DNA of 64,000 nt from positions 32,001 to 96,000 of IMG/VR virus record IMGVR_UViG_3300043409_001491; one strand, given 5' to 3'. The DNA comes from a virus. A model generated the notes under the pieces. The model ran no database searches. It worked only from the letters and a program-made list of their open reading frames with translations, and was not told the DNA's origin. Each line of letters starts with the position of its first letter. The stretch's first letter is position 1. Positions 4,332-18,036 of this stretch are shown here, piece after piece. The position numbers were made by a program, and so were the translations under genes.

Positions 4332-4333
4332 AA

Positions 4334-4915: not shown

Positions 4916-4954
4916 CTATTTGTTACATTCAAATAAATAACATATAATTAAACT

Positions 4955-5176: not shown

Positions 5177-5177
5177 A

Positions 5178-5804: not shown

Positions 5805-6048
5805 TATTTACTATATATAAACTATCTTTAAAAACCTTAACTACAGTATTCTCTCTTCTTATATATATTTAGTATACACTATTCAATACCTGGCATATTG
5901 GACTTATAGTTACAAAACGGACATAGGTAATTATAACGATTTGATAACTCTTTTTATATACCTGGTGTTATATGCTTAATTATGGCTTATATAACCTTTT
6001 GTTATAAACTTTTATATACTGGCATAAAATAATGTTATAATGTTTTTG

Positions 6049-6097
6049 CTGGCACTCTAGGTTGCTACCCCCACCCTACGGCGCCTAGGGTGTCCAG
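6049..6097 (+). ncRNA. Candidate small hairpin RNA with C-rich loop
   Basis: TGTTATAAT at 6033-6041; CTGGCACTCTAGG/CCTAGGGTGTCCAG imperfect stem. Confidence 0.35.
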
Positions 6098-6124
6098 TTA
6101 TGAAATTATGGTATAATCAATATT

Positions 6125-6541
6125 ATGTGTACTCCTACAACCGAAAAACTTGGTGCCACACCTGCCAACATTCAATGGAACGTTGTTCGTGGAGATACGG
6201 CAACGCTTAAGGTAGAGTTTTTTGAAGATGACGAAGTTACCCCATATGAGACTACGGCTTGGACATTTATAGCAACTTCTTATGATCCAGTAGCCGATGC
6301 TTTAGATTTATTAACGGTAGAGTCCTATGAAGACGGTGTTATTTATATTATTGCAAAAGCAAACATTACAGCAAACTGGGGACTTGGAAAATACAAGCCA
6401 GTAGTTTCAGAGTTAAGGTTTGACCTTCAAGCCACACTTCCTGGAGATGGAGTATCTGGCGGTGGCGGAGATGAAGTTACTAAGTGGACTCCAGTTATTG
6501 GAACAATTTGCGTAATGGGTGATGTGAGCGGTACGCTATGA
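6125..6541 (+). CDS. Putative virion structural protein (Ig/BppU-like)
   Basis: VVRGDT...DLQ...WT..GTI.V.GDV pattern shared with 7405 and 16752. Confidence 0.65.
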   Translation: MCTPTTEKLGATPANIQWNVVRGDTATLKVEFFEDDEVTPYETTAWTFIATSYDPVADALDLLTVESYEDGVIYIIAKANITANWGLGKYKPVVSELRFDLQATLPGDGVSGGGGDEVTKWTPVIGTICVMGDVSGTL

Positions 6542-6624
6542 TAGTTGTAGTAACTCCAGCCCAAGTAAATATTCCTCCAGTAATTAAAGTTGGAACTAAG
6601 GTTTATAGAACACAGTCTAAGTGA
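6538..6624 (+). CDS. 28-aa peptide
   Basis: MIVVVTPAQVNIPPVIKVGTKVYRTQSK; ATGA overlap. Confidence 0.45.
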   Translation: MIVVVTPAQVNIPPVIKVGTKVYRTQSK

Positions 6625-6635
6625 TAAAATAGTCT

Positions 6636-7379
6636 ATGGCAAAAAGCATGGACTCTCCACAACCCCTTAAAAGAAAAGGGTATTCTCAAGCAATTCAAGA
6701 ATCCTCTGTTCAGCAAACTACAGATTTAAAAGAATATATAGCCGTCCCTGGACTAACAGGAATTCAAGGCGAAAGAGGACACAAAGGGGACAAGGGAGAA
6801 AAGGGTGACCAAGGGCTTGAAGGATTAAAAGGTGATATAGGTAAGACAGGACCGCAAGGGCCCCGTGGAGAACCTGGAAAGGGTGCTGAGGGCTATGATT
6901 CAGTTTCTGGACAATACCCAGGATGGGTTTATTATAAAAATGGATCAGATAGGTCAGTTAATTTAGGTGCTGGTAGAGGAGATGATGGCTGGGTGACTCT
7001 TAATTTCATCCCAGATAAAGAAAAAAGCAATAGGGAATATATGCCAAGAGGATCAGAAGACCTGTGGCTTCCAGAACAAAACTTATTTAATTTTAAATCT
7101 TTAAAGATTGGGACAAAGGTAGACATAAGATATGATTTTTCTATAGCCACAGAGTCAATGAACACGGACCTTTGGATTAGAACATTTAATGAAAAATATT
7201 TAAAATCTCCAATCTCACATGTTGCAAATCTTAAATACCAGTATTCCTACGATATGTCGTTTTCTCAAACCTTATACATAGACGAGTCAAAAATTAAGAG
7301 TCATGGAGCAAGGCCACAAGCCAGAACCGACACACAGGCTTCCTTGTTTTTAAATGGTCTCTACATATCGGTTTCTTAA
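6636..7379 (+). CDS. Collagen-like (Gly-X-Y) virion protein
   Basis: About 14 GXY triplets followed by a globular beta domain. Confidence 0.8.
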   Translation: MAKSMDSPQPLKRKGYSQAIQESSVQQTTDLKEYIAVPGLTGIQGERGHKGDKGEKGDQGLEGLKGDIGKTGPQGPRGEPGKGAEGYDSVSGQYPGWVYYKNGSDRSVNLGAGRGDDGWVTLNFIPDKEKSNREYMPRGSEDLWLPEQNLFNFKSLKIGTKVDIRYDFSIATESMNTDLWIRTFNEKYLKSPISHVANLKYQYSYDMSFSQTLYIDESKIKSHGARPQARTDTQASLFLNGLYISVS

Positions 7380-7404
7380 TGGTATAATAAACTTAGGAGG
7401 AATA

Positions 7405-7767
7405 ATGGCATTTCCAGGTACATATAATTTTAGTTACTACCGTGGTGACACGTATCAATTTATCATCCGTCCAAAAAATGCAAATGGGACAACTTTTTCA
7501 TTAGATGCCTATGATGGCAATGCCTTATTTACAATAGCCAATCGGCGTGGTAGCACGGGTACACAGGTCGCAGCAACAGCAACAATAGATACTTCAACCG
7601 ATATTGTTACATGCACAATTACTCCTGAACAAGGAAGAGAACTTGCTGCTGGAACCACATATGTTTATGACGTTCAAATTACAAATACAACCCCAACACC
7701 AGATGTGATCTTTACGCTACTTACTGGATCGATTACTGTAACTGATGATATTACTGGTGCCGCTTAA
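7405..7767 (+). CDS. Putative virion structural protein (Ig/BppU-like)
   Basis: AGGAGG RBS; YRGDT...YVYDVQI...LLTGSITV. Confidence 0.75.
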   Translation: MAFPGTYNFSYYRGDTYQFIIRPKNANGTTFSLDAYDGNALFTIANRRGSTGTQVAATATIDTSTDIVTCTITPEQGRELAAGTTYVYDVQITNTTPTPDVIFTLLTGSITVTDDITGAA

Positions 7768-8330
7768 TGACAGATGTAGTATTATCCACAGATGACTTAA
7801 CTGTTTTATCTGGACCAGAGACAATTGAACTTCTTGTTGACATTGGCCCAACAGGAACACGTGGTAGTAAATTTTTTGTCGGTATTGGAAACCCAAACTC
7901 AGATGACACTTTAGACCCACTATTAAATGACCTATATGTTAACTCAGCACCTGGATCAGATTACGGATACTTGTATCAATATGTTTCAGAGCCTGGTGGA
8001 GATACTTGGGTAGAGGTTTTAAATATTACCCCTGCAATTTATTCAAAAATACATACTGTGACTTTTGCATCAGGAACAGATGCTGATTATGGAAGCGGAA
8101 CAATTGTAGTTCCAATAACAGACATAACCTCAGTTACTGGTTTAGAGGCAGATAATTTTAGTGTTCAATATTCTATTGTTAATGCAAAACCATTAGCAAC
8201 ATCTCTTTCTTTAGTTTCAGTGTCTGGAACAAACCTTGTTCTAAACCTTCAAGCCTCAGAGTATGATGGAACTTGGGCAGCCCTTGAAACAGAGGCTTCT
8301 GTTCATCTATTTGTTTCGGTTGTGCTATAA
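7767..8330 (+). CDS. Putative virion structural protein
   Basis: GPTGTRGS...GNP...DLYVN motif typical of fibre-associated proteins. Confidence 0.7.
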   Translation: MTDVVLSTDDLTVLSGPETIELLVDIGPTGTRGSKFFVGIGNPNSDDTLDPLLNDLYVNSAPGSDYGYLYQYVSEPGGDTWVEVLNITPAIYSKIHTVTFASGTDADYGSGTIVVPITDITSVTGLEADNFSVQYSIVNAKPLATSLSLVSVSGTNLVLNLQASEYDGTWAALETEASVHLFVSVVL

Positions 8331-8348
8331 TGAATGAGGTGAAATGAC

Positions 8349-8933
8349 ATGGCATCTGAATCTATAGGCTCAATTTATCCCACAGAAATACCTGGGTATG
8401 CAGACAATGCTGACATTCAAGCGGCATTTAGACTCTACCACTATGGTTCTACAACATATAGCACTGCAAATTCAAATACCGCAAACCTTGAACCCACATC
8501 AATTGCCTTTCACCTAAATGCGTTACAAGAACAGATAACAACACTAACATCTCCAAGAGAAACTGCAGCAATATCAGCAACTGCTGCTACTGGAACTGTA
8601 CACCTTAATATAAGTACAGCATCCGTTCATATTTACACATCAAACTCAACTGCAAACTATACTTTAAATATTCGTGGAAATTCATCAACTACCCTAAACT
8701 CATTAATGGAAATTGGTGAATCTATTACAGTTACTTTTGAACATCCAAACGGTTCTACGCCATATTATGCCACTGCATATACTATTGATGGTAATGCCGT
8801 TACTCCTAAATGGCTGGGTGGAACAGCCCCTACAGCAGGAAACGCTAGTGCGACAGATGTGTATATGATCCAGATTAGAAAAACTGCTTCTGCTACCTTC
8901 ACATGTCTGGCATCTCAATCTAAGTTTGCTTAG
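8349..8933 (+). CDS. Virion fibre/adaptor protein
   Basis: Thr/Ala-rich; C-terminal KWLGGTAPT...DVY...LASQSKFA domain. Confidence 0.7.
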
Positions 8934-8941
8934 GGGTTAAC

Positions 8942-9775
8942 GTGCCACTATTTCGTAATCCCAGCGCAATTGGTATATTTTTAAAGTTAGCACCAACACC
9001 AACTCCAACACCAACTCCAACGCCAACACCTACTCCAACTCCGACGCCAACGCCAACACCTACTCCAACACCTACTCCTACTCCAACGCCTACTCCTACA
9101 CCTACTCCTACACCTACACCTACTCCAACGCCAGAGCCAACTCCAACACCAACCCCGACCCCAACTCCGACACCAACCCCGACCCCAACTCCGACACCAA
9201 CTCCGACACCAACTCCGACACCTACACCAACACCTACACCAACTCCAACTCCTACACCGACCCCTACTCCTGCACCTACAGAAGGAATAGTCTATCTTTC
9301 ATACTGCTATAATGGAACACCAACACAAGATGGATTCTTTGTTGATGCTAATAATGCGGTTGTACAAAATATTAACCAAGCCTGTGCTGCCTACACCTCA
9401 CTTCTTCAAGGTCTTACTCCACCAGCCACAAGTATTGTTTGTTCAATAGTATCGATGCCTGATTTGCCAGCAAGTTGTCCTCCTCCACCAACCCCTACTC
9501 CAACACCTACTCCAACACCTACTCCAACCCCTACTCCAACACCTACTCCAACTCCTACTCCAACGCCAACTCCAACACCTACACCAACGCCTACTCCAAC
9601 GCCAGAGCCAACTCCAACACCAACCCCGACCCCAACTCCGACACCAACTCCGACACCAACTCCGACACCTACACCAACACCTACACCAAGTCCAGTACCA
9701 CCAGGCAACTTCTGTGGCTTTGATTGCTTTGGAGAAGAAGTCGAGTCTTCATGTGCAAATCCATGTCCGTTCTAG
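8942..9775 (+). CDS. (Pro-Thr)n mucin/extensin-like protein with two Cys-rich domains
   Basis: Two PT tracts (about 47 and 33 dipeptides); synonymous codon variation indicates selection on the protein. Confidence 0.85.
8993..9690 (+). repeat. CCN-ACN hexamer tandem repeats in two blocks
   Basis: Direct inspection; blocks at about 8993-9279 and 9487-9690 share a duplicated PEPT-containing segment. Confidence 0.9.
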
Positions 9776-9823
9776 TAGTCATGATAAGATATATGCTAAA
9801 CTTAGATATCAAAAGGAGAAATA

Positions 9824-10249
9824 ATGTACGCCTGTGTAGTAAAAAATAGCGAAGGAACTTGGGATGTGTTTGGATTTCTTGCATATCCAGCAAACCAGGA
9901 AAAGCAAGATAGGCTACAGGCTGCAGTGGCAAGCGGTCTTCCAATTACTGGAATGATCTTGACTCCTTATAAGTGGTCAGCAACAAATGGTGCAACTTTT
10001 AACGGTACAGAATTTACTGGAGGAAGCCAATCTCCTGTTCCACAAGACAATGATTGGTCATCAGTTAATACATTTGGGTATATTTGTGATAATGTGATTA
10101 TTGGTGCATTTATAACAAGCACTGGCACTGTAATGTGTAATCAATATAATGCAATATTTGATGATGAAACAACAATAATTAAAGTTCCAGAAAGCCAGAC
10201 AGCCAACATTGGCGATATCTGGGATGGCGAAAACATAATTAATAGATAG
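9824..10249 (+). CDS. Hypothetical protein, fibre-assembly/chaperone-like
   Basis: AAAAGGAG RBS; repeated GATFNGTEF / IGDIWDGEN motifs. Confidence 0.65.
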   Translation: MYACVVKNSEGTWDVFGFLAYPANQEKQDRLQAAVASGLPITGMILTPYKWSATNGATFNGTEFTGGSQSPVPQDNDWSSVNTFGYICDNVIIGAFITSTGTVMCNQYNAIFDDETTIIKVPESQTANIGDIWDGENIINR

Positions 10250-10266
10250 TAAAAGTGGGGGTAGAT

Positions 10267-10494
10267 ATGTCAAAGTGGGAAGAATGGAAAGAAAGTCTTG
10301 GGGAAACAAGACCTTGGCATTTATTAGATCATAGCAAGTTGGTAGACGACAAGTCTATATCTGATGCTAGACTAAACATATGTAAAACATGTCCAGAGTT
10401 AATTAAACTTACAACAACATGTAAAAAATGTGGATGCTTTATGGCAGCAAAAACAAAACTACAAGGGGCAGCATGTCCAATAGGGAAATGGTAA
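10267..10494 (+). CDS. Small Cys-rich protein, paralogue of 5178-5384
   Basis: RPW...ARLNICKTC...CKKCGCFMAAK...CPIGKW. Confidence 0.75.
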   Translation: MSKWEEWKESLGETRPWHLLDHSKLVDDKSISDARLNICKTCPELIKLTTTCKKCGCFMAAKTKLQGAACPIGKW

Positions 10495-10504
10495 AGGGGC
10501 CAAA

Positions 10505-11104
10505 ATGATAAAAGAAGAAATAGCACCAGGAATAGCCGTATATAGCGATGTAATTCCAAATAGTAATACACTATATCAAGACATTGAAGAAGGAATGGCT
10601 TCTGCGGGACTAAAATGGAATGAAGCAAGTGTTAAAGAATCAACAGATCCAATGGTAAACAAAAATACAAGAGACACAAGTACTTTTGGAGTTCAATATG
10701 CAGGACAAATAAAAGATCTAACAACAACAGATCCAAGAGAAGTTTTTGGCTTAAGCCTAAATAATATCTTCTTTGAGCATTTTGACCCAGTAGAAAAAGA
10801 CTACATGGCAACATATGGAATAGGCTCAGACTGGCATGATGTTTACGGAATTTTAAAATATGGAGCAGGCCAGCAATTTACTAACCACATTGATGACCAT
10901 CCAAGTTATCACAGACGAGTATCTACTGTCTACTATTTAAATGATAACTACACGGGTGGAGAAATTAACTTTCCTCGTTTTGGAATTACCTTTAAACCAA
11001 AGGCTAATCAAATGATTGTGTTTCCTTCAACATATGTTTATAATCACTCAGTGTCTCCAGTTATTGAAGGTGAAAGATATGCCGTAGTTAGTTGGTTACG
11101 ATGA
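10505..11104 (+). CDS. 2OG-Fe(II) oxygenase, prolyl 4-hydroxylase-like
   Basis: HxD (HID), YLNDNYTGGEINF, FPS...H, RYAVVSW. Confidence 0.9.
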   Translation: MIKEEIAPGIAVYSDVIPNSNTLYQDIEEGMASAGLKWNEASVKESTDPMVNKNTRDTSTFGVQYAGQIKDLTTTDPREVFGLSLNNIFFEHFDPVEKDYMATYGIGSDWHDVYGILKYGAGQQFTNHIDDHPSYHRRVSTVYYLNDNYTGGEINFPRFGITFKPKANQMIVFPSTYVYNHSVSPVIEGERYAVVSWLR

Positions 11105-11661
11105 AAGAGCCATTGCTAGTTAATGATGTTTTAAGTCCAGAAGACTATGCAATTCTTACTAGTGCCGTTTCAAATCCAAAATCTTTTGAATATCAAGAAG
11201 GTTTTTCAAGATATGTTGTTGCAGATAATAATCTTGCAATACTGGCAGAACTTGCAAATAAATTAATTCCTACCGCAAGAGAAGCATTTGGAAGCGATAC
11301 TTTACTTCCAACATATACATTATTTGCACACTATGAAGGACAGAACCCTGCTCCAAGTCTTTATAAGCACAAGGATGATAATGCTTGCACATACACTTTA
11401 GACATGTGTGTTTATCAGAATGAGTCTTGGGATCTGTTTGTTGAAGATAAGGCTTACACGCTTTATCCTAATCAAGCCCTTGCATACTATGGTAATGATC
11501 AGATGCACTGGAGAGAAGAATTTCCTAATCCAGAAACAAATCATGTTGCAATGGTCTTTTTTCATTTTGCAGAACCAGACCACTGGTACTTTACAGAAGG
11601 TCCAGAGTATCTTCACACTCATATTCGTGCAAATAAAGATTCTATGGCTAAAGTCATGTAA
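11101..11661 (+). CDS. 2OG-Fe(II) oxygenase (second family)
   Basis: LYKHKD, YYG...HWRE, VFFHF. Confidence 0.8.
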   Translation: MKEPLLVNDVLSPEDYAILTSAVSNPKSFEYQEGFSRYVVADNNLAILAELANKLIPTAREAFGSDTLLPTYTLFAHYEGQNPAPSLYKHKDDNACTYTLDMCVYQNESWDLFVEDKAYTLYPNQALAYYGNDQMHWREEFPNPETNHVAMVFFHFAEPDHWYFTEGPEYLHTHIRANKDSMAKVM

Positions 11662-12680
11662 TGAAACCTATCTTTTTTAAACTTTGGAATGCTGGATTGT
11701 TTAACCAAGTGCTAAGTTTAGAGTTAGCAGCAGGGCTTGCTCACGAAACTAAAAAACCAATAATAGTTCATTTTTTTTGTCATGATCCAAATAGAAAAAT
11801 ATATATCTCTACACCAAGTATACATTTTAATGATCAAAGAAATAATTTTACAGATCGCTCTTTTAAAAATAACCCTCACCTTTTAGACTTGTTTGATGTT
11901 AGTGCAGATCTAATTATTGTTAATGAAAAAATAGATTCATTTAAACAAGAAGAATTTGTTATAGATGAATTAGCAACTAAATATTATTATAGCAAAGAAA
12001 AAGAAATATCTGATGATGAATTATTGTTTGCAGAAGGCAGAGAAAGACTTACTTTTAATAAAAATATACATTTAAAAGGTACTTTAGGAGTCTATTCAAG
12101 ATTTTTTTATAATAGAAGTCCTGAGTTAAATGAAGTTTTGTCTTCAGTTAAGCCTAAGCAGATCTATCGGGATTTGGCTAAAAAAATATCAGAATCTCTT
12201 GGTAATTTCCAAGGAATGCATTTAAGGTTGTCAGATCATCTTGTAAGCACAGACTATCACAAAGAAGAAATAGTCAATGAATGGATAACAAAATATGAAA
12301 ATAATGGTATTCCTATTGTTTTATCTACAGATGAACCAAGTCACCGATTAGTAAATAAAAATAAGCATAGGTTTATTTTATTGGATGAATACATAGTCAA
12401 TAATTTTAAAGATGATTTTATGTCTTTGCCGTTTCAGGATGAGGTAGTTTTTGGCCTTATTTGTAATTTAGTTTTACATGACTCAGTAAATTTTGTAGGA
12501 AAATCAGGAACTACTTACACATCATATATTCACAGAAACAGGAATCAAAAAAATATTGAAACTTGGGATTTCTTTGATAATCCACCAAAAGCAGAAGGTC
12601 TTCCATATTCTTGGAATAATTATCCTAGACCAAATGATCAAAAAATGTGGTGGAGAGAGTGGCCAGAATCAAAATGCTAA
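11661..12680 (+). CDS. Protein O-fucosyltransferase-like glycosyltransferase (GT65/GT68 fold)
   Basis: GLFNQ, GMHLRLSD, LSTDE, FVGKSGTTYTSYI motifs. Confidence 0.75.
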   Translation: MKPIFFKLWNAGLFNQVLSLELAAGLAHETKKPIIVHFFCHDPNRKIYISTPSIHFNDQRNNFTDRSFKNNPHLLDLFDVSADLIIVNEKIDSFKQEEFVIDELATKYYYSKEKEISDDELLFAEGRERLTFNKNIHLKGTLGVYSRFFYNRSPELNEVLSSVKPKQIYRDLAKKISESLGNFQGMHLRLSDHLVSTDYHKEEIVNEWITKYENNGIPIVLSTDEPSHRLVNKNKHRFILLDEYIVNNFKDDFMSLPFQDEVVFGLICNLVLHDSVNFVGKSGTTYTSYIHRNRNQKNIETWDFFDNPPKAEGLPYSWNNYPRPNDQKMWWREWPESKC

Positions 12681-13618
12681 GAAACAAAGTAATTATAAAT
12701 GCCTGGACAGGAATGTTTGGAATTAGAATGCACGAATATGCATTTGCTAAAACTTATGCACACAAAAACAATATGGACCTTGAATTATTGTCAAACTGGG
12801 AAGGTTCTGTTATGTTTAAAAATGCAACAGAGTCCTTGATAGAGTTTCCAGAGTTACAAGAATATTTAAAAAATGGCGGAAGACCATTAGAAGAAAGAAA
12901 TAATGAAACATTAAAGTATTATCCAGGATCAATATACTGGAACGGTAATTGGCATCCAGAAGATCCGTATAAAAATAATAACTGCTCGATTGTTACTAAT
13001 GACACCAACGCATATCAGGAGTCTATATTTGACCAAATGGAACTTTCCTATATAAAACATATTTTTGAGTTAAGCGATTTAATAAAAGAATCAGAAGTTT
13101 ACAAGCATTGGGAATCAAAAGCAGGAACATACGATGTTGCTCATCTTCGTAGAGGAGATATTGCAGATATTAATTATAATCTTAATAATGAACAAGGCTA
13201 TTCTGTGGTATCAAAAGATTCTTATTTTTCTGCTTTTGAAAAGTTTGGGTATGACAAAGATAAAATTGAATGGATATCAAATGATCATACTAAGAAGTGG
13301 CATCAAGATAGACCAGACATGATCTTTTTGCCATGGTCTTATCCACAGGGTGCTCAGTTTGATGAAAAACTAGGCTTTGATTTTCTTGATGATTGGTTAA
13401 AGATGTATTTTGCTAGAACAATATTTAGAGGAAATAGCAGTTTTTCTTTCTGGGCAGGACTACTGTCTCCAACAGCAAAGGTTTATTCTCCAGTAGTTGA
13501 TAAACAACTAATCTATGGCCGTGATGGTTTAACAGAAGAATTATTCTTAGATTTTACTGAGGGCAATGAAAATCATTGGATGTATTCTGGCACAGATAGA
13601 AAGATAAGGATAAGATAA
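12674..13618 (+). CDS. GT11-like (alpha-1,2-fucosyltransferase fold) glycosyltransferase
   Basis: GMFGIRM, HLRRGD, GNSSFSFWAG motifs. Confidence 0.75.
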   Translation: MLRNKVIINAWTGMFGIRMHEYAFAKTYAHKNNMDLELLSNWEGSVMFKNATESLIEFPELQEYLKNGGRPLEERNNETLKYYPGSIYWNGNWHPEDPYKNNNCSIVTNDTNAYQESIFDQMELSYIKHIFELSDLIKESEVYKHWESKAGTYDVAHLRRGDIADINYNLNNEQGYSVVSKDSYFSAFEKFGYDKDKIEWISNDHTKKWHQDRPDMIFLPWSYPQGAQFDEKLGFDFLDDWLKMYFARTIFRGNSSFSFWAGLLSPTAKVYSPVVDKQLIYGRDGLTEELFLDFTEGNENHWMYSGTDRKIRIR

Positions 13619-13619
13619 A

Positions 13620-14642
13620 ATGAAAACAGCACTAGTTTTAGGAGCAGGAGGCTTCATAGGAAGCCATATGGTAAATAGGCTTAAGTCAGAAGGATATTGG
13701 GTTAGAGGTGTTGACTTAAAACATCCTGATTTTTCTAATACACAGGCAGACGAATTTATTGAGAGAGATCTATCTGTATATGAAAATGTTGAAAAAGTTA
13801 TTAAGTTTAAAGGATATCAAGGAAACTTTTACCACGAGATTCCATATCGTTCCATAGATTCATTTGATGAAATATATCAGTTCGCTGCAGATATGGGTGG
13901 AGCAGGATATATTTTTACTGGTTTAAATGATTCTCAGATTATGGAAAACTCTGCTCTAATAAACCTTAATCTTTTAAGAGCACAGTCAAGACTTAATGAA
14001 AAATATGATATAAACAAAACCAAAATATTCTATTCAAGTTCTGCCTGCATGTATCCTGACTATAAGCAGTTAGATGTTAACAATCCTGGATTGAAAGAGT
14101 CTGATGCATACCCTGCAGATCCTGACAGCGAGTATGGCTGGGAAAAACTCTTTAGCGAAAGAATGTTCTTAGCATTTAACAGAAACAATAAGATTCCTGT
14201 AGCAATTGCCAGATACCATAATATTTATGGACCAGAAGGAACTTGGGACGGTGGAAAAGAAAAGGCTCCTGCTGCAATGTGTAGAAAAGTTATACAAGCA
14301 GATGGTTTTATAGAAATTTGGGGGGACGGAGAACAAACCCGCTCATTCCTATATATAGACGAATGCATAGAAGCAACAAGAAGACTTATGGAGTCAGACT
14401 TTACTGGACCTGTTAATATTGGATCTGAGGAAATGGTTACTATCAATCAGTTGGTAGACATTGCTTGTAGTATTGAAGGCAAGGTTTTAAGCAAGATGCC
14501 TATTCCTGGACCTTTAGGAGTTAGAGGCAGAAACTCTAATAACGATTTGGTTAGAGAAAAGTTAGACTGGGACTATTCAATGTCTCTTAAGGATGGAATT
14601 CAAAAAACTTATGATTGGATTAAAAATCAAATAAATGAATAA
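13620..14642 (+). CDS. GDP-mannose 3,5-epimerase (extended SDR)
   Basis: GAGGFIG, AADMGGAGYI, SSACMYP, YGWEKL, EKAPAAMCRK, GVRGRNS are GME signature motifs. Confidence 0.88.
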   Translation: MKTALVLGAGGFIGSHMVNRLKSEGYWVRGVDLKHPDFSNTQADEFIERDLSVYENVEKVIKFKGYQGNFYHEIPYRSIDSFDEIYQFAADMGGAGYIFTGLNDSQIMENSALINLNLLRAQSRLNEKYDINKTKIFYSSSACMYPDYKQLDVNNPGLKESDAYPADPDSEYGWEKLFSERMFLAFNRNNKIPVAIARYHNIYGPEGTWDGGKEKAPAAMCRKVIQADGFIEIWGDGEQTRSFLYIDECIEATRRLMESDFTGPVNIGSEEMVTINQLVDIACSIEGKVLSKMPIPGPLGVRGRNSNNDLVREKLDWDYSMSLKDGIQKTYDWIKNQINE

Positions 14643-15471
14643 AACTGAAGTTGTAAAAGAATGTTTTATGCCAGATGGAATTGGCGCACAACTTTGGAGA
14701 AAAATTTATGTAATGTCATATGCAAAATATTATAATCTATTGTTTGAAGACACACCAATTACAGATTTTTTAATTCATGAATCTGATAAAGTTTACAGCG
14801 AAGAGGAAAAAATTAAATTTATTGACAAGTTTAATACAATATTAAAAAATCCTTGGAAAGGTATAGATTTTTCTAATAAGGATCATTTTTTTCTTTCTGA
14901 AAAGGTAGGCTTGGGCTATTCTAACCTATATGGACACGCAGGGCTAATAAACCCCCCACATCCATTTTTAGAAGTTGCAAAAGAGTTTAGCACTATAGAA
15001 AAAACTGAAAATAATGTAATTATTCATATACGAAGAGGAAACGTGATTCCAGAAAACCCCAGGTGGGTAGAAGAATCTGTCTATATTGATATGTTACAAC
15101 TTTTGCCACATTTTTTAAACAAGTTAAAAATTGTACCAGACAGAGTAATAATTTTTACAGATGCTTCAGATACAAATAAAAGATATAAACCCATAAATCA
15201 AACCCAATTAGATAAATGGCAACAGGGGCATTTGTATAAAGACGAAAACGATTCTTTTGAAACTACTTCTATAAATTTTGAATTATTTAGAAATTCGTAT
15301 CCAGGTATTGAGATTTTAAATAATTTAGATACTTATACGGCTTTTAATATGATGGTTATGGCAAAAGTGCTAATAACATCAAAATCTGCATTTAGCCAGG
15401 CTGCTGGATTGCTATCAAAAAACACTGTTGTGCCAATTGATAACTATGACAGTTGTTTTAAAAATATATAA
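14635..15471 (+). CDS. GT11-like glycosyltransferase
   Basis: DGIGAQL, IHIRRGN, FTD, SKSAFS motifs. Confidence 0.7.
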   Translation: MNKTEVVKECFMPDGIGAQLWRKIYVMSYAKYYNLLFEDTPITDFLIHESDKVYSEEEKIKFIDKFNTILKNPWKGIDFSNKDHFFLSEKVGLGYSNLYGHAGLINPPHPFLEVAKEFSTIEKTENNVIIHIRRGNVIPENPRWVEESVYIDMLQLLPHFLNKLKIVPDRVIIFTDASDTNKRYKPINQTQLDKWQQGHLYKDENDSFETTSINFELFRNSYPGIEILNNLDTYTAFNMMVMAKVLITSKSAFSQAAGLLSKNTVVPIDNYDSCFKNI

Positions 15472-15507
15472 AAAATACCCCCAAGGATTTCTCCAAAGGG
15501 GTATTTT
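15472..15507. terminator. Bidirectional terminator
   Basis: AAAATACCCC...GGGGTATTTT between convergent genes. Confidence 0.75.
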
Positions 15508-15518
15508 ATTACCTAAAA

Positions 15519-16064
15519 TTACTTAGGAAATTTGCTCATCCACATTCTGGTCTTAGGCGTAATGCCTTTCCAAGAAGACCAGTCGTTTCCACCATTGGAC
15601 ATGTAGTATGCAATCTCCGCATTTTTGACGGGATTGAATAGTTCAGCGTTAGAGTCAAGATCAAACTTATCTCGTCTATCTGGACCCAGTGTATCAATCA
15701 TATTAATTTGGAACATCCCGTAGGAGGAGTCCCCAGTCTTATGGTTTCCGTTAAATGCTAAGGGACGACCATTAGATTCTTTCTTAGCAATAGCCCATGC
15801 TACTACTAAGTCGTTGCCTTTGAATCCCACCAAAGAAAGCAACTTCTTTAATTCAATATCTGTAAGATTTGTTTTGTTTTCATAACGTTCTAACATTTTT
15901 GCTTTAGAAACAACAAAAGCCACCTTGTGGGTGGCAGCAGAGTTTTCAGCGTGTTTAGTTAGTAAGTTGTTTTCCGTAGTTGATGCATTGGCAAAGTTGC
16001 TAAAGGGTGCTACAACTCCGACCATTGCGAGGATTCCAATCCAAGCCTTCTTGTCTCTTCTCAT
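15519..16064 (-). CDS. Lytic transglycosylase/lysozyme-like (SLT) protein with N-terminal signal/anchor
   Basis: AIAKKES catalytic Glu, SYGMFQIN, NP..N, WSSW; hydrophobic N-terminus. Confidence 0.85.
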   Translation of the reverse strand: MRRDKKAWIGILAMVGVVAPFSNFANASTTENNLLTKHAENSAATHKVAFVVSKAKMLERYENKTNLTDIELKKLLSLVGFKGNDLVVAWAIAKKESNGRPLAFNGNHKTGDSSYGMFQINMIDTLGPDRRDKFDLDSNAELFNPVKNAEIAYYMSNGGNDWSSWKGITPKTRMWMSKFPK

Positions 16065-16087
16065 AATAGTAACCTCCTAGAGAACAA

Positions 16088-16143
16088 ATGCTACCTGTTG
16101 GTAGCATGTATTAATTATAACACGAATTTGCCATCAAAGTCAA
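16088..16143 (-). promoter_or_regulatory. Sigma70/SigA promoter and 5' hairpin for the SLT gene
   Basis: TTGACT-N18-TATAAT with TG extension; ATGCTACC/GGTAGCAT hairpin at 16088-16107. Confidence 0.65.
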
Positions 16144-16208
16144 ACTTTAGATAACATTTTGGTAAACTTTTAGTTTTTACGGGGGAAAGTGGTATAATAA
16201 TAAGTACT

Positions 16209-16736
16209 ATGGCTACTGGTGCAACTACAACTTATGATCTTCCTTATCCCGTTTTAAGTGACCCTGTAAATGTCCACGAGGATATTCAATCACTTGCAGA
16301 ACGCATAGAAGATGTTATTTCAAACATTGGACTTCCTTTTATTTCACTAGAAGTTAGAAATATAACTGTATCAACAATTGCAAAAGGAACACCAGTTTAT
16401 ATTTCAGGGTATACATCAAAACCAACAGTTGCAAAATGTGATTCAAATGACCTAACAACATTTCCAGTAGTTGGAATAACACAAGCAGCAATGACAAGTA
16501 ATTCTGATGGTGTAATAATTATCTCTGGCGTATTTGAAAATATAAATACTGCATCCTACACTGCTGGAGATATACTTTATGTTGCTGATGGTGGAGGTTT
16601 GACAGATACAGTTCCTACTGATGGATCAGGTGCTGTAGCAGTGGTTGCTAAATCAAATGCCTCAACTGGTGTTATTATTGTTGGACAGCCAAAAGGTAAT
16701 GGATCTTGGGGGGCATTGAAAAATGGACTTGCTTAA
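16209..16736 (+). CDS. Virion structural protein
   Basis: LPYP N-terminus; GTPVY...G..LYV beta-clip-like domain. Confidence 0.7.
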   Translation: MATGATTTYDLPYPVLSDPVNVHEDIQSLAERIEDVISNIGLPFISLEVRNITVSTIAKGTPVYISGYTSKPTVAKCDSNDLTTFPVVGITQAAMTSNSDGVIIISGVFENINTASYTAGDILYVADGGGLTDTVPTDGSGAVAVVAKSNASTGVIIVGQPKGNGSWGALKNGLA

Positions 16737-16751
16737 TGGTATAATTTAACA

Positions 16752-17210
16752 ATGGCCGTATATAGAAACCCTAATGAAACCCCCCTAGAAGGAGTAACTG
16801 CTCCATCTACCTATAACATTGGAAATAAACCTCCACTTGTTAACTGGACCGTTGTAATTGGAGATAGTGCTTCTTTTAGAATTTATGTTGAAGATGATCT
16901 TGGAAATGAATTAGATTATACATTCCCTGTTAGTGGTGACGATGCTGGTTGGGATATTTCTGGAGAGTTTAGACGATACTCTGATAATACTGGAGATGAT
17001 CTGTTGTTTACGATTTATCCAAATCAAGTACCAGGGCTTGATGAGCCTGGAGAGTTTACAGTTACAGTATCACCTGCACAGTCTAAGATTTTAAGAACAG
17101 GCGATGTCTTTGATATTCAATTAAGAGATGGTGCCACTCGTGTTTGGACTGTTTGTCAGGGTGAGATGACTATGATTGGCGAAGTCACAGAGCAAGATAC
17201 AGTAAGTTAA
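16752..17210 (+). CDS. Putative virion structural protein (paralogue of 6125/7405)
   Basis: WTVVIGDSA...FDIQL...WTVCQG. Confidence 0.7.
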   Translation: MAVYRNPNETPLEGVTAPSTYNIGNKPPLVNWTVVIGDSASFRIYVEDDLGNELDYTFPVSGDDAGWDISGEFRRYSDNTGDDLLFTIYPNQVPGLDEPGEFTVTVSPAQSKILRTGDVFDIQLRDGATRVWTVCQGEMTMIGEVTEQDTVS

Positions 17211-17212
17211 TT

Positions 17213-17548
17213 ATGGCAACAACCAATATAACCAATATTGGCAGAAGCCAAACCATCTCTGATATAAAACCAACAATAACAGCAGAAAATATATCTACCC
17301 ACTCTTCAATAATTTCAAGCATTGCTTTTTTAGTTACAGCAGCAACAATTGCAATCTCTCCAACAATTGAAGACATATCAGGCTCTGTCGGATCTTTGGT
17401 AACTGCAGACTATCCTAAAATAACAACGGTAACAGAGATACTACCATTTAGACTAACCATAACTAATATTGGCATTGAGGGGTACAGTCCTTCAAATCCC
17501 CCAGGAATTGGAATTCAAATGATTGGTTTTTCTAACTATATACTTTAA
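17213..17548 (+). CDS. Hypothetical virion protein
   Basis: ORF track; operon context. Confidence 0.6.
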   Translation: MATTNITNIGRSQTISDIKPTITAENISTHSSIISSIAFLVTAATIAISPTIEDISGSVGSLVTADYPKITTVTEILPFRLTITNIGIEGYSPSNPPGIGIQMIGFSNYIL

Positions 17549-17568
17549 CAATATGATATAATTCAAAC

Positions 17569-18021
17569 ATGGCGAAAATATCATTATCAAGCGTAAAAGC
17601 CCTGTTTCAGACAGGCGACAGACCAACTCAAGAAAACTATGTTGATTTAATTGATACGGCGTCTGCTCAGGCAACAGATTTGGGTAGTGCAGGTAGCAAC
17701 GAAGACACAAATGAAATAACCGTAACAGGTATTGAGAACAGCACACTCTTTGATAGTTTTTCAGCCACAGAGTGGAGATCCATTAAGTATGTGGTCTCAT
17801 TAAAAAAGAATAGTGGAGATAAGTTCTTTACAACAGAATTGACCATAGTCCCTGACGGTACAAATGATAATGTTAGTGAATATGGAACAGTAGACAATAA
17901 TGGGAATATTGGCACCATTAACGTCTCTAGAACAGGAAGCACAGTCTCACTAACTGTAGTTCCTGTGTCAGGTCAGACCCCCATCACCTTACGCTATATG
18001 CGTACAGGCTTGAAGGCTTAA
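17569..18021 (+). CDS. Virion protein sharing its C-terminal domain with the 18037 fibre
   Basis: FQTGDRPTQ N-terminus; DSF....S.KY.V....EY domain. Confidence 0.7.
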   Translation: MAKISLSSVKALFQTGDRPTQENYVDLIDTASAQATDLGSAGSNEDTNEITVTGIENSTLFDSFSATEWRSIKYVVSLKKNSGDKFFTTELTIVPDGTNDNVSEYGTVDNNGNIGTINVSRTGSTVSLTVVPVSGQTPITLRYMRTGLKA

Positions 18022-18036
18022 CCAAGGAGATAACAA

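What the first reader, a model, noticed from the sequence alone, without database searches (positions are those of the whole stretch)
8349..15471. Candidate self-contained virion glycoprotein system: (Pro-Thr)n substrate, hydroxylases, glycosyltransferases and sugar-donor enzyme in one locus
Seen: one co-oriented run of genes. It contains a fibre/adaptor, a protein with about 80 Pro-Thr dipeptides and Cys-rich domains, a chaperone-like protein, a Cys-rich protein, two 2OG-Fe(II) oxygenases (one P4H-like), a POFUT-like GT, two GT11-like GTs and a GDP-mannose 3,5-epimerase, ending at a terminator. Known: P4H hydroxylates Pro-rich repeats, POFUT-type enzymes O-glycosylate Ser/Thr, GT11 adds alpha-1,2-linked sugars, and plant/algal extensins use Pro hydroxylation followed by glycosylation. 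Inference: the phage builds an extensin/mucin-like bottle-brush on its virion, with substrate, modifying enzymes and donor synthesis linked. Possible roles are shielding, receptor mimicry, adhesion or protease resistance.
Basis: partly seen in the sequence, partly recalled or inferred. Interest (0 to 1): 0.9.

Follow-up and report, generated by a model that had tools for sequence, protein, structure and literature searches.

The report
Mobile phage fibre-tip glycosylation module
A complete 106-kb uncultured phage carries, inside its tail-fibre operon, a swappable gene block that pairs a fibre-tip protein built from Pro-Thr linkers with two hydroxylases, three fucosyltransferase-type enzymes and an L-galactose-donor enzyme; comparison with about 90 related loci suggests, but does not prove, that the phage sugar-coats its own fibre.

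Summary
Window 8349-15471 is one tightly packed, co-oriented run of ten genes ending at a real hairpin terminator. It encodes a fibre adaptor, a 277-aa protein with 79 Pro-Thr dipeptides and two 4-Cys modules, a small unknown protein, a DUF6171 six-Cys protein, a P4H-like 2OG oxygenase, a second probable oxygenase (Asp/Asn-hydroxylase-like), three fucosyltransferase-superfamily GTs, and a GDP-mannose 3,5-epimerase with all catalytic residues.

The link between enzymes and substrate is supported by comparison only. Three complete close relatives with the same flanks lack both the PT tip and the whole cassette. Distant-flank relatives carry near-identical cassettes. Oxygenase-less cassettes sit beside Thr-rich, Pro-poor linkers. 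Pro/Thr/Ser-rich ORFs lie near 31 of 47 in-family and 10 of 39 out-of-family GT loci, against 0 of 80 control loci.

"Self-contained" is overstated. GDP-mannose must come from the host, and a second sugar cluster with a GT60-type gene lies elsewhere in the genome. "POFUT-like" and "GT11-like" hold only at superfamily level, and "chaperone-like" is unsupported. Host-envelope remodelling remains the main rival.

Earlier notes of this scan report similar PT-fibre plus hydroxylase/GT cassettes on other DNA. No chemistry has been shown.

The parts
8349..8933 (+). Fibre adaptor (194 aa): a conserved N-terminal attachment part plus a variable C-terminal fibre domain
   Evidence: phrog_5906 at E=1e-29. 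The C-terminal domain is 31-57% identical to the C-terminal ends of cyanophage and roseophage tail-fibre or structural proteins. The N-terminal 1-77 aa is 57-71% identical to the start of the longer fibres of G001-G003. In L011/L013/L020 the homologue is fused to the PT/Cys-rich tip.
8942..9775 (+). Fibre-tip protein (277 aa): N-terminal docking peptide, (PT)n linkers at residues 18-113, 180-221 and 223-254, a central 4-Cys module and a C-terminal 4-Cys module
   Evidence: 79 PT dipeptides and 8 Cys. The N-terminal peptide PLFRNPSxIGIFL is conserved in L003/L006/L009. The central module is 46% identical to part of the fused fibres of L011-L013.
9824..10249 (+). Small protein of unknown role (141 aa), variable among relatives
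   Evidence: No Pfam hit; only a weak hit to phrog_14370. It is 48% identical in L011-L013, and unrelated small ORFs take its place elsewhere. The 'chaperone' label is not supported.
10255..10494 (+). DUF6171 six-Cys protein (79 aa; an alternative ATG start lies at 10267), always the first gene of the enzyme cassette
   Evidence: PF19668 at E=2.9e-7, 31.2 bits against a cut-off of 27. Cys at 43, 46, 56, 59, 61 and 74. Present in nearly all cassettes, including the minimal DUF6171-GT2-GME form.
10505..11104 (+). ox1: prolyl-4-hydroxylase-like Fe(II)/2OG oxygenase (199 aa)
   Evidence: PF13640 at E=1.9e-18. Best PDB match is B. anthracis P4H (3itq/5hv0) at E=7e-6, with HxD, the distal His and the basic 2OG-binding residue aligned. 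Tet_JBP scores only 16 bits against a cut-off of 34.9.
11092..11661 (+). ox2: probable Fe(II)/2OG oxygenase of an uncharacterised family (189 aa; likely ATG start at 11101)
   Evidence: phrog_2954 at E=2e-13. Y81, H93, D95, W113, H139 and R141 are invariant across 33 sequences down to 19% identity. Homologues give borderline PF05118 (Asp/Asn beta-hydroxylase) hits on this domain. 4 of 10 long homologues fuse it to a PF13640 domain.
11661..12680 (+). GT1: fucosyltransferase-superfamily glycosyltransferase (339 aa)
   Evidence: AF2 model with pLDDT 79.6. All leading Foldseek matches are NodZ, AtFUT1, POFUT2, POFUT1 and FUT8, at E from 9e-7 to 5e-5. Some homologues at 61% identity carry PF10250. 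Invariant H187-L-R-L-S motif.
12647..13618 (+). GT2: fucosyltransferase-superfamily glycosyltransferase (323 aa; likely ATG start at 12674); the most widely conserved GT of the cassette
   Evidence: AF2 model with pLDDT 88.9, matching NodZ 3six at E=7e-6, then FUT8, AtFUT1 and POFUT1. Invariant H166-L-R-R-x-D171 and N263-S-x-F-S-x-W-A. One homologue carries PF01531, and the Atlas places it with GT11-like clusters at 0.97.
13620..14642 (+). GDP-mannose 3,5-epimerase (340 aa)
   Evidence: PDB 2c59 at E=2.9e-89. The residues equivalent to S143, C145, Y174, K178, N203, K217, R243 and R306 are all conserved (residue list from PMC8787198).
14635..15471 (+). GT3: probable fucosyltransferase-superfamily glycosyltransferase (278 aa), an optional member of the cassette
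   Evidence: Invariant H131-x-R-R-G-N136 and S251-A-F-S-x-x-A. The full-length hhalign with GT2 puts both motifs in register, but at a probability of only 18%. The Atlas places it with GT11-like clusters at 0.96. One homologue carries PF05830 NodZ. It was not folded.
15472..15510 (.). Hairpin terminator between the convergent operon and the minus-strand gene 15519-16064
   Evidence: The stem AAAUACCCC/GGGGUAUUU has an A-tract before it and a U-tract after it; -19.9 kcal/mol, z=-3.24, and 0 of 200 shuffles fold as well.

Best explanation
The locus is a horizontally exchangeable tail-fibre-tip module that carries its own tailoring enzymes.

Shown by sequence and comparison:
- The run is co-oriented and tightly packed within the structural region.
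- It encodes a fibre adaptor and a tip protein in which (Pro-Thr)n linkers connect small Cys-rich modules.
- It also encodes a DUF6171 zinc-ribbon-like protein, a P4H-like oxygenase, a second probable oxygenase, three GDP-fucose-type fucosyltransferase-fold enzymes, and a bona fide GDP-mannose 3,5-epimerase.

Inferred mechanism:
- Late in infection, in the host cytoplasm, GME converts host GDP-D-mannose to GDP-L-galactose (with GDP-L-gulose as a minor product).
- The GT2-type enzyme, which is the only GT kept in minimal cassettes, transfers the L-sugar to the Thr-rich linkers of the tip protein. POFUTs put L-fucose on Ser/Thr in the same way.
- GT1 and GT3 extend or diversify the glycan.
- ox1 hydroxylates linker prolines. 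ox2 hydroxylates another residue, or cooperates with ox1.
- The product would be a stiff, protease-resistant, mucin/extensin-like glycosylated spacer on the distal fibre.

The whole package (tip plus enzymes) is swapped between phages as one unit. No chemistry has been demonstrated.
For: Enzyme identities.

Operon packing and the terminator place the enzymes in one unit with structural genes.

Module-level gain and loss: complete relatives G001-G003 keep the flanks (g7767 70-75%, m15519 90-95% identical). They lack DUF6171, both oxygenases, all GTs and GME, and their tips at this locus have no PT linkers (Pro fraction 0.02-0.04).

Mosaicism: L003 has distant flanks (g7767 36%, g16209 41%) but a near-identical cassette (GT1 96%, GME 94%, GT3 89%, GT2 88%, ox2 86%).

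Every cassette-bearing family locus that covers the interval encodes a P/T-rich (or, in L011-L013, a PV/PA/PT-rich) Cys-module protein just upstream. In several it is fused to the fibre N-domain.

Linker chemistry tracks enzyme content. Oxygenase-bearing loci mostly have a linker Pro fraction of 0.37-0.44. The five oxygenase-less loci have Pro 0.05-0.16 and Thr 0.44-0.68.

Background rate: 0 of 80 control loci (903 kb) hold a Pro/Thr/Ser-rich ORF, against 31 of 47 in-family and 10 of 39 out-of-family GT2-like loci.

In a distant virus (L072), a 1568-aa Cys/PT-rich ORF is directly followed by GTs, including a GT2 homologue.

Fucosyltransferases accept GDP-L-Gal (PMC8787198). ox2-like and P4H-like domains occur fused in one protein.
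Against: There are no biochemical or proteomic data.

Synteny among relatives is partly inherited, and the independent lineages are few (perhaps 4-6).

Three oxygenase-bearing loci (L025, L030, L051) have Pro-poor linkers.

29 of 39 out-of-family GT2-like loci have no Pro/Thr/Ser-rich ORF within about 10 kb. In T4-like cyanophages, GME lies in sugar islands beside nrd and tRNA genes, and a comparable enzyme set was read as host cell-wall genes (PMC9602691).

PBCV-1 encodes a P4H, yet no hydroxyproline was reported in its particles (PMC7019647, ref 162).

The acceptor could be the Cys-rich modules rather than the linkers.

The phage's GT60-type gene, the family known to glycosylate Thr/Hyp in proteins, is unlinked to the cassette and is present in relatives without PT tips.
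Confidence: 0.55

Rival explanations
1. Host-envelope remodelling. The GTs and GME act on host surface glycans (LPS, S-layer or cell-wall polysaccharide) during infection, for example to mask receptors against superinfection or to stop progeny re-adsorbing. The fibre tip and the enzymes would travel together because both relate to the same receptor glycan, not because one modifies the other.
For: GME homologues (65-69% identical) are common in T4-like cyanophages, inside sugar/LPS-type islands next to nrd genes and tRNAs. [quoted passage not shown] Most out-of-family GT2-like loci (29 of 39) have no Pro/Thr/Ser-rich ORF nearby. This genome has a second, non-structural sugar cluster. Co-swapping of a receptor-binding tip with receptor-modifying enzymes would also explain the module-level gain and loss.
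Against: The enzymes sit inside a tightly packed structural run that ends at a terminator, not in an early or AMG island. No flippase, polymerase, lipid-carrier priming GT or membrane-anchored enzyme was seen in the locus. Oxygenase presence tracks the proline content of the adjacent linkers, which this model does not predict. A P4H-like enzyme has no obvious role on glycans. Fused fibre-PT forms and the 0 of 80 control rate argue for a protein-level link.
Confidence: 0.25
2. The enzymes modify a virion protein, but not the PT linkers. The target would be either the small disulfide-type Cys modules of the tip (as POFUT1/2 fucosylate EGF/TSR modules and AspH hydroxylates EGF domains) or the collagen-like fibre encoded at 6636-7379.
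For: The GT1 fold matches POFUT1/2 as well as it matches NodZ. Homologues of ox2 give borderline Asp/Asn beta-hydroxylase hits. Every tip protein has repeated Cys modules. A collagen-like G-X-Y protein lies 1 kb upstream. In S-SCSM1, 2OG oxygenases are interleaved with fibre genes.
Against: G002 and G003 keep the collagen-like gene (64-65% identical) without the cassette. The collagen repeat has very few Pro residues in hydroxylatable positions. Linker Pro content, not module type, tracks oxygenase presence. The fold matches do not favour POFUT over NodZ or FUT8.
Confidence: 0.12
3. DNA hypermodification. The oxygenase(s) hydroxylate a DNA base (TET/JBP-like) and the GTs glycosylate it, as in phage MT + 5mYOX + GT clusters or base J.
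For: Such clusters exist in phages and can lie near structural genes (bioRxiv 10.1101/2023.12.21.572611). ox1 gives a weak Tet_JBP hit (E=0.007, 16 bits).
Against: The complete genome has no C5 cytosine methyltransferase and no thymidylate-synthase-type hydroxymethylase. The Tet_JBP score is far below its cut-off of 34.9, while PF13640 scores 67.6 bits and the best solved relative is a P4H. The GT folds are GDP-fucose-type enzymes, whose solved relatives found here act on glycans and proteins. Cassette presence tracks a protein feature.
Confidence: 0.03

Closest known systems
Mycobacteriophage virion glycosylation (Freeman et al. 2023, Cell Host Microbe; cited in PMC12582341 and PMC11256854, not readable here)
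   Same: Phage-encoded glycosyltransferases, placed beside structural genes, glycosylate the phage's own virion proteins in the bacterial cytoplasm.
   Different: From my own knowledge of that work, the substrates there are capsid and tail-tube subunits. No hydroxylases, no dedicated L-sugar donor enzyme and no PT-linker tip protein are involved, and the GTs belong to other families. Here the modification itself is unproven.
Chlorovirus PBCV-1 glycosylation machinery and P4H (PMC7019647)
   Same: The virus encodes its own GDP-mannose-derived L-sugar donor pathway (GMD/GMER to GDP-L-fucose), GTs for its capsid glycans, and a prolyl 4-hydroxylase active on Pro-rich repeat peptides.
   Different: PBCV-1 is a eukaryotic giant virus. 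Its genes are scattered, its donor is GDP-L-fucose rather than a GME product, and no hydroxyproline was detected in its particles. Here the genes form one mobile operon together with the putative substrate.
Skp1 prolyl-hydroxylation/glycosylation pathway of Dictyostelium and Toxoplasma (PhyA, Gnt1/GT60, PgtA alpha-1,2-FucT; PMC6939170)
   Same: It is a cytoplasmic sequence: a P4H-type oxygenase, then soluble GTs including a fucosyltransferase step. This phage genome also encodes a GT60-family (PF11397) enzyme.
   Different: That pathway modifies a single Pro in one regulatory protein. The phage's GT60-like gene is about 25 kb away and is kept by relatives that lack the cassette. The cassette GTs are GT11/23/65-like, not GT74/GT77.
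Sugar/'LPS' gene islands of T4-like cyanophages (S-SM2, SynMITS9220M01, S-SCSM1; PMC9602691)
   Same: Their GME is 65-69% identical, and in S-SCSM1 it accompanies POFUT-, alpha-1,2-FucT- and NodZ-annotated genes. Multiple 2OG oxygenases occur in the same genomes.
   Different: Those islands lie beside nrd and tRNA genes and are read as host cell-wall AMGs. tblastn finds no homologue of GT1, GT2 or GT3 in any of 50,697 deposited phage genomes. Here the genes are embedded in the fibre operon and are gained and lost together with the PT tip.
POFUT1/POFUT2, NodZ, FUT8, AtFUT1 (GDP-fucose fucosyltransferase superfamily GT65/68/23/37/11)
   Same: They share the fold and motif I, H-x-R-R/x-x-D. POFUTs transfer an L-sugar directly to protein Ser/Thr. 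FucTs accept GDP-L-Gal (PMC8787198).
   Different: Sequence identity is 8-15%. The window proteins themselves have no Pfam hit, no one subfamily is favoured, and the acceptors are unknown.
Plant/algal extensins and arabinogalactan proteins (own knowledge)
   Same: They have Pro-rich repeats, including Thr-Pro/Ser-Pro dipeptide arrays, that P4H hydroxylates and that are then O-glycosylated to give rigid, protease-resistant rods.
   Different: Those use secretory-pathway enzymes of other GT families (GT31, GT77, GT95) and arabinose/D-galactose. The resemblance is functional, with no homology of the GTs.

Membership tests
GDP-mannose 3,5-epimerase (GM35E, extended SDR) | Strong full-length similarity to characterised GME, as opposed to GalE or GMER | tested here: met
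   2c59 (Arabidopsis GME) at E=2.9e-89 over residues 6-339. The next class (other epimerases) scores E=5e-22, and GDP-fucose synthase E=1.6e-10.
GDP-mannose 3,5-epimerase (GM35E, extended SDR) | Catalytic S143/Y174/K178 triad, C145/K217 acid-base pair, N203, R243, R306 (PMC8787198) | tested here: met
   All eight positions are identical in the phmmer alignment to 2c59 (residue list).
GDP-mannose 3,5-epimerase (GM35E, extended SDR) | [quoted passage not shown] | not testable with these tools
   This needs an enzyme assay.
GDP-fucose fucosyltransferase superfamily (GT11/GT23/GT37/GT65/GT68) | The variant GT-B fold shared by NodZ, FUT8, POFUT1/2 and AtFUT1 | tested here: met
   GT1: 76 Foldseek hits at E<=1e-3, with all of the listed top matches from this superfamily. 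GT2: 34 such hits, with the same families. GT3 was not folded.
GDP-fucose fucosyltransferase superfamily (GT11/GT23/GT37/GT65/GT68) | Motif I H-x-R-R-x-D (GDP-binding Arg), and a C-terminal S-x-F-S/G-x-W-A type motif | tested here: met
   GT2 has invariant H166-L-R-R-x-D171 and N263-S-x-F-S-x-W-A. GT3 has H131-x-R-R-G-N136 and S251-A-F-S. GT1 has H187-L-R-L-S. My knowledge of the motifs comes from the superfamily literature (Martinez-Duncker 2003, cited in PMC9602691).
GT11 (alpha-1,2-fucosyltransferase, PF01531), for GT2 and GT3 | Pfam/CAZy family-level sequence match | tested here: inconclusive
   Neither window protein has a Pfam hit. One of 120 listed GT2 homologues carries PF01531. The nearest Atlas clusters carry PF01531 in only 20-31% of members. 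One GT3 homologue carries PF05830 NodZ instead.
Protein O-fucosyltransferase (POFUT, PF10250/GT65/GT68), for GT1 | Family-level sequence match and a specific structural preference for POFUT | tested here: inconclusive
   The window protein has no Pfam hit. Six of 120 homologues carry PF10250. The profile against PDB finds POFUT2 only at E=0.7. NodZ and AtFUT1 score as well as POFUT1/2 by fold.
Prolyl 4-hydroxylase-type 2OG-Fe(II) oxygenase (PF13640), for ox1 | Pfam match above the curated cut-off, with H-x-D...H and a basic 2OG-binding residue | tested here: met
   67.6 bits against a cut-off of 27. H128-x-D130, the distal His and Arg align with those of B. anthracis P4H, and most are invariant in A5.
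Prolyl 4-hydroxylase-type 2OG-Fe(II) oxygenase (PF13640), for ox1 | Hydroxylates peptidyl proline | not testable with these tools
   PF13640 also holds non-prolyl hydroxylases. The only indirect support is the correlation between linker proline and oxygenase presence.
Fe(II)/2OG oxygenase superfamily, for ox2 | Metal-binding facial triad and a detectable family match | tested here: inconclusive
   H93-x-D95...H139 plus R141 are invariant across 33 diverse members. There is no Pfam or PDB hit for the window protein or its profile. PF05118 scores 22.8 bits against a cut-off of 22.6 on one homologue and 21 bits on another. hhalign against ox1 finds nothing.
Phage-encoded virion protein glycosylation system | GT genes embedded among structural genes and co-varying with a candidate substrate | tested here: met
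Phage-encoded virion protein glycosylation system | Glycan demonstrated on a virion protein | not testable with these tools
   This needs virion glycoproteomics. The phage is uncultured.
Phage DNA glycan hypermodification cluster (MT + 5mYOX/TET + GT) | A cytosine C5-methyltransferase (or hydroxymethylase) and a TET/JBP-type dioxygenase in the genome | tested here: not met
   PF00145 has no match and PF00303 has no match in the complete genome. PF12851 scores only 16 bits, on ox1, below its cut-off of 34.9.
Skp1-type Hyp-glycosylation pathway (P4H + GT60 + FucT) | A GT60 (PF11397) enzyme genetically coupled to the P4H | tested here: not met
   A PF11397 gene is present (E=5e-56; PF11397 corresponds to GT60 per PMC6418280). 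It lies about 25 kb from the cassette and is retained in G001-G003, which lack ox1 and the PT tip.
DUF6171 (PF19668), for cys10255 | Pfam match above the curated cut-off | tested here: met
   31.2 bits against a cut-off of 27. The function of the family is unknown.

The most novel reading that the evidence does not exclude
Phages exchange ready-made 'decorated fibre-tip' cassettes. In these, a hypervariable receptor-binding tip travels with the enzymes that turn its Pro/Thr linkers into a hydroxyproline-containing, L-galactosylated mucin/extensin-like brush. This would be the first protein O-L-galactosylation system and the first P4H-dependent glycoprotein pathway shown for a bacterial virus. 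It would run entirely in the bacterial cytoplasm. The enzyme complement (1-3 FucT-like GTs, 0-2 oxygenases) would tune the glycan to the linker chemistry.
Probability: 0.35. Interest if true: 0.85.

Novelty: new variant of a known kind. Interest (0 to 1): 0.7.

Why it matters
If the tip protein is really hydroxylated and L-galactosylated, several things follow.
- Bacterial viruses would be building extensin/mucin-like glycoproteins with a soluble, cytoplasmic, genetically compact toolkit.
- That would extend phage virion glycosylation, so far shown for mycobacteriophage capsids and tails, to receptor-binding fibres, and to a rare L-sugar.
- It would give a function to some of the many orphan 2OG oxygenases and fucosyltransferase-like genes of aquatic phages.
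- Some genes now booked as host-metabolism 'AMGs' would be re-read as virion-tailoring genes.
- The cassette would offer a small enzyme set (GME plus FucT-like GTs) for making L-galactosylated peptides.
- The natural series of cassette variants, with different GT and oxygenase complements beside different linker chemistries, is a ready-made experiment for assigning each enzyme's role.

Tried and rejected
1. Near-identical or annotated relatives. Megablast of the locus and tblastn of GT1, GT2 and GT3 against 50,697 phage records found nothing. Only GME and the fibre C-terminal domain have deposited relatives.

2. Sequence-profile searches of the GT1, GT2, GT3 and ox2 alignments against PDB sequences were uninformative. 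The best relevant hit was POFUT2 at E=0.7.

3. hhalign gave no support for GT1 vs GT2 (probability 0.2%) or ox1 vs ox2 (0.1%). GT2 vs GT3 reached only 18% probability, although the motifs were in register.

The contexts of distant homologues were obtained through the search for related loci instead.

5. DNA-hypermodification reading: rejected, because the MT, hydroxymethylase and TET genes are absent.

6. GT60 as the initiating enzyme of this cassette: rejected as a linked component, because cassette-less, PT-less relatives keep it.

7. The simple terminator scan missed the terminator. Direct folding found it.

8. Host assignment was not achieved. The portal is 44% identical to those of Streptomyces phages, while GME and the fibre domain are closest to cyanophage genes.

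9. The Freeman 2023 paper could not be read.

Full report
SETTING. The window is bases 32001-96000 of a complete, single-contig virus genome of 105,901 bp with direct terminal repeats and 37.5% G+C. The window encodes a portal, prohead protease, major capsid protein, an Ig-domain major tail protein, a 2247-aa probable tape measure, a class II ribonucleotide reductase, a DnaB-like helicase and a primase. This is a large siphovirus-type phage. Its portal is only about 44% identical to those of Streptomyces phages, and no deposited phage genome resembles the locus at DNA level. The host is unknown.

From 8349 to 15471 there are ten co-oriented ORFs with gaps of -34 to +48 nt. The run ends at a strong hairpin at about 15472-15507, with an A-tract before it and a U-tract after it (-19.9 kcal/mol, z=-3.2). 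That hairpin faces the convergent minus-strand gene 15519-16064. The simple terminator scan had missed it.

The second ORF (GTG start at 8942, 277 aa) contains 79 Pro-Thr dipeptides in three arrays, at residues 18-113, 180-221 and 223-254. These arrays separate a central 4-Cys module from a C-terminal 4-Cys module.

The first ORF is a fibre adaptor. Its first ~80 residues are shared with much longer fibres in relatives. Its C-terminal domain matches the extreme C-terminus of tail-fibre or structural proteins of cyanophages and roseophages, including a 1853-aa S-SCSM1 tail fibre that its record annotates as a virion protein.

The 141-aa ORF at 9824 has no informative match, so 'chaperone-like' is unsupported. 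The 79-aa ORF at 10255 is a DUF6171 protein with six Cys.

THE ENZYMES.

ox1 (10505-11104) matches PF13640 at E=1.9e-18. Its best solved relative is the Bacillus anthracis prolyl 4-hydroxylase (E=7e-6), with the H-x-D, the distal His and the basic 2OG-binding residue aligned. Its Tet_JBP score is 16 bits against a cut-off of 34.9.

ox2 (11092-11661; probable ATG start at 11101) has no Pfam or PDB match. It belongs to a large family of 960 cluster representatives. In that family only Y81, H93, D95, W113, H139 and R141 are invariant down to 19% identity. That is an H-x-D...H triad plus an Arg. On the ox2-like domain of two homologues, PF05118 (Asp/Asn beta-hydroxylase) scores at the cut-off. In 4 of 10 long homologues the domain is fused to a C-terminal PF13640 domain. 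So 'two 2OG oxygenases' is right for ox1 and probable for ox2, and the two are functionally linked by these fusions.

GME (13620-14642) matches Arabidopsis GDP-mannose 3,5-epimerase at E=2.9e-89. It conserves S143, C145, Y174, K178, N203, K217, R243 and R306 (residue list from PMC8787198).

GT1 and GT2 have no Pfam hit. Their AlphaFold models (pLDDT 79.6 and 88.9) match only GDP-fucose-type fucosyltransferases among the top hits: NodZ, FUT8, AtFUT1, POFUT1 and POFUT2, at E from 1e-6 to 1e-3. GT2 has an invariant H-L-R-R-x-D and a C-terminal N-S-x-F-S-x-W-A. GT3 has H-x-R-R-G-N and S-A-F-S. GT1 has H-L-R-L-S. A few homologues reach PF10250 (GT1), PF01531 (GT2) or PF05830 (GT3), and the Atlas places GT2 and GT3 with GT11-like viral clusters. 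'POFUT-like' and 'GT11-like' are therefore correct at superfamily level only.

The pathway logic is sound. GME is the only sugar-nucleotide enzyme in the locus. Its product, GDP-L-galactose, is the 6-hydroxy analogue of GDP-L-fucose, and several fucosyltransferases accept it (PMC8787198).

IS THE PT PROTEIN THE SUBSTRATE? This cannot be shown by computation, but five comparative results bear on it.

(1) Synteny with variation. I analysed about 90 related viral loci. Within the phage family, defined by shared flanking genes, the enzyme block always lies between the fibre gene and the minus-strand gene. It occurs in at least ten architectures:
- DUF6171-ox1-ox2-GT1-GT2-GME-GT3
- the same without GT3
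- the same without GT2
- DUF6171-ox1-ox2-GT2-GME
- DUF6171-ox1-GME-GT2'
- DUF6171-ox2'-GME-GT2'
- DUF6171-GME-GT2'
- DUF6171-GT2-GME
- and others.
DUF6171, one GT (nearly always of the GT2 type) and GME form the core. In every cassette-bearing family locus that covers the interval, the gene just upstream encodes a hypervariable protein in which P/T-rich linkers (PV/PA/PT-rich in L011-L013) alternate with Cys-rich or FN3-like modules. In L011/L013/L020, and in the L033 and L058-L063 types, this protein is fused to the fibre N-domain. The PT protein is therefore a distal fibre part.

(2) Module-level gain and loss. Three complete close relatives (G001-G003) share the flanks (g7767 70-75%, minus-strand gene 90-95% identical). 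They have no GME, no DUF6171, no oxygenase and no FucT-like GT. Their tips at this locus have Pro fractions of 0.02-0.04 and no PT arrays.

(3) Mosaicism. L003 has distant flanks (36-54% identical) but a near-identical cassette (GT1 96%, GME 94%, GT3 89%, GT2 88%, ox2 86%, fibre C-domain 79%). The tip and the enzymes therefore move horizontally as one block.

(4) Chemistry tracks enzymes. Oxygenase-bearing loci mostly have linkers with a Pro fraction of 0.37-0.44. The five loci without any oxygenase have Pro 0.05-0.16 and Thr 0.44-0.68. Three oxygenase-bearing loci are Pro-poor exceptions. Because the minimal cassette works beside Pro-poor poly-Thr linkers, Thr (not Hyp) is the likeliest common acceptor of the GT2-type enzyme, and the oxygenases look like add-ons for Pro-rich linkers.

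(5) Background rate. None of 80 control loci (903 kb around another gene of the same phage family) contains a Pro/Thr/Ser-rich ORF. By contrast, 31 of 47 in-family and 10 of 39 out-of-family GT2-like loci do. In a distant 180-kb virus, a 1568-aa Cys/PT-rich ORF is directly followed by a GT2/GT7C-type GT. A GT2-like homologue and another GT lie close by.

WHAT WEAKENS IT.
- Relatedness inflates these counts. The independent lineages are few.
- 29 of 39 out-of-family loci have no such ORF nearby.
- In T4-like cyanophages, GME lies in sugar islands next to nrd and tRNA genes. S-SCSM1's GME/POFUT/alpha-1,2-FucT/NodZ set was interpreted as host cell-wall genes (PMC9602691).
- PBCV-1 encodes a P4H, but no Hyp was reported in its particles (PMC7019647).
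- The locus is not self-contained. No NTP-transferase for GDP-mannose exists in the genome.
- A second sugar cluster at genome coordinates ~10.5-19.4 kb encodes a PF11397/GT60-type GT (E=5e-56), two more GTs, an FkbM methyltransferase and a UDP-hexose 4-epimerase-like SDR.
- GT60 is the family of the Skp1-Hyp GlcNAc-transferase and of the T. cruzi mucin Thr GlcNAc-transferase (PMC6939170, PMC3769586; PF11397 corresponds to GT60 per PMC6418280). However, this gene is a core gene of the family. The cassette-less, PT-less relatives keep it. The G001 homologue of a second, short (PT)8 tail protein lacks the PT stretch. So the GT60-like gene is not coupled to the cassette.

RIVALS.
- Host-envelope remodelling is the main alternative (about 0.25). 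It would also explain why a receptor-binding tip and glycan enzymes are swapped together. It does not predict the link between proline and oxygenases, or a P4H at all.
- Modification of the Cys modules or of the upstream collagen-like fibre is possible (about 0.12). Against the collagen option, G002 and G003 keep that gene without the cassette.
- DNA hypermodification is unlikely (about 0.03). No cytosine methyltransferase, hydroxymethylase or TET-class enzyme is present.

COMPARISON AND NOVELTY. Phage-encoded virion glycosylation is known for mycobacteriophages. Virus-encoded L-sugar donor synthesis, capsid GTs and a P4H are known for chloroviruses. A cytoplasmic sequence of P4H followed by GTs is known for Skp1. 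This locus works like a combination of these but is a member of none. It is a mobile operon that couples a PT-linker fibre tip with 0-2 oxygenases, 1-3 fucosyltransferase-fold GTs and GME. My full-text search for phage, tail fiber and proline-threonine together returned no paper. Earlier notes of this scan report related cassettes on other DNA, with PT fibre, 2OG oxygenase, GT60 and a six-Cys helper, and in one case GME plus GT11-like genes after a (PT)n protein. Those notes are unchecked leads, not evidence.

VERDICT. I rate this a new variant of a known kind, with interest 0.7.

Noticed in passing
outside the window: G000:C1 ~10,500-19,400 (locus L093:579-9362): A second sugar-gene cluster. 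It holds a PF11397/GT60-type glycosyltransferase (306 aa, E=5e-56) on the + strand. On the - strand it holds a GT4-like GT (343 aa), two unknown ORFs, an FkbM-type methyltransferase, a UDP-hexose/HexNAc 4-epimerase-like SDR (best PDB matches 4zrm and WbgU) and a Glyco_trans_1_2 GT. The GT60-like gene is a conserved core gene of the phage family (the 80 listed matches are 62-96% identical), and relatives without the PT cassette keep it. Its target is unknown.
   Followed up: partly
window 53489-54334 (+): A second protein with a short (PT)8 array and a Pro-rich stretch lies in the tail module, between the 1438-aa ORF and a tail protein. The G001 homologue (80% identical in the C-terminal part) lacks the PT stretch.
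   Followed up: partly
window 15519-16064 (-): The convergent 181-aa gene has an N-terminal hydrophobic segment and an E-S...G-M-F-Q-I-N motif, which to my eye looks like a lytic transglycosylase or lysozyme-like enzyme. It is 90-95% identical in G001-G003 and marks the right border of the swappable module. It has no PHROG hit.
   Followed up: no
window 6636-7379 (+): A collagen-like fibre protein (G-X-Y run at residues ~39-92; many PHROG tail-fibre hits) lies 1 kb upstream of the locus. Paralogous phrog_1084 proteins flank it at 6125, 7354 and 16752.
   Followed up: partly
L181 (G003:C1:12000-20500), positions ~4600-6560: In the cassette-less relative G003, the same slot holds different genes. 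There is a 223-aa protein with a D-S-D motif that looks like a GT-A glycosyltransferase. There are also two related proteins of 175 and 248 aa, one on each strand, that share a THPLNR-x-DLPF motif. This suggests an alternative tailoring set.
   Followed up: no
L072 (IMGVR_UViG_3300030330_006573, 180 kb), positions 2326-12885: A distant virus has a 1568-aa ORF with 93 Cys and PT-rich linkers. It is followed by a GT with PF10111, PF02709 and PF00535 hits, then a RecA-like gene, a GT2 homologue (37% identical) and another GT2-family GT. L071, L075, L077 and L078 have the same giant Cys/PT-rich ORF 2-3 kb upstream of their GT2 homologue; the genes in between were examined only in L072.
   Followed up: partly
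L183 (Synechococcus phage S-SCSM1, NC_070962.1:209,000-220,000): Five annotated 2OG-Fe(II) oxygenase genes and a 453-aa 'ferrochelatase' are interleaved with tail-fibre genes. The 'ferrochelatase' label is the one carried by the PHROG families that ox1 and ox2 hit. This is an independent positional link between these oxygenases and fibres in T4-like cyanophages.
   Followed up: no
phrog_3531 and proteins P0377, P0430, P0447, P0456: ox2-like and P4H-like (PF13640) domains occur fused in single proteins of 450-490 aa. ox1 and ox2 hit different halves of the 362-position phrog_3531 profile, which is labelled 'ferrochelatase' and appears mis-named.
   Followed up: partly
L023:671-877, L017:1900-2106, L009:8166-8618, L015:1223-1615: The small ORF between the tip gene and the DUF6171 gene is replaced by unrelated small proteins in different relatives. 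It behaves like a tip-specific accessory, possibly an assembly factor, but nothing identifies it.
   Followed up: no
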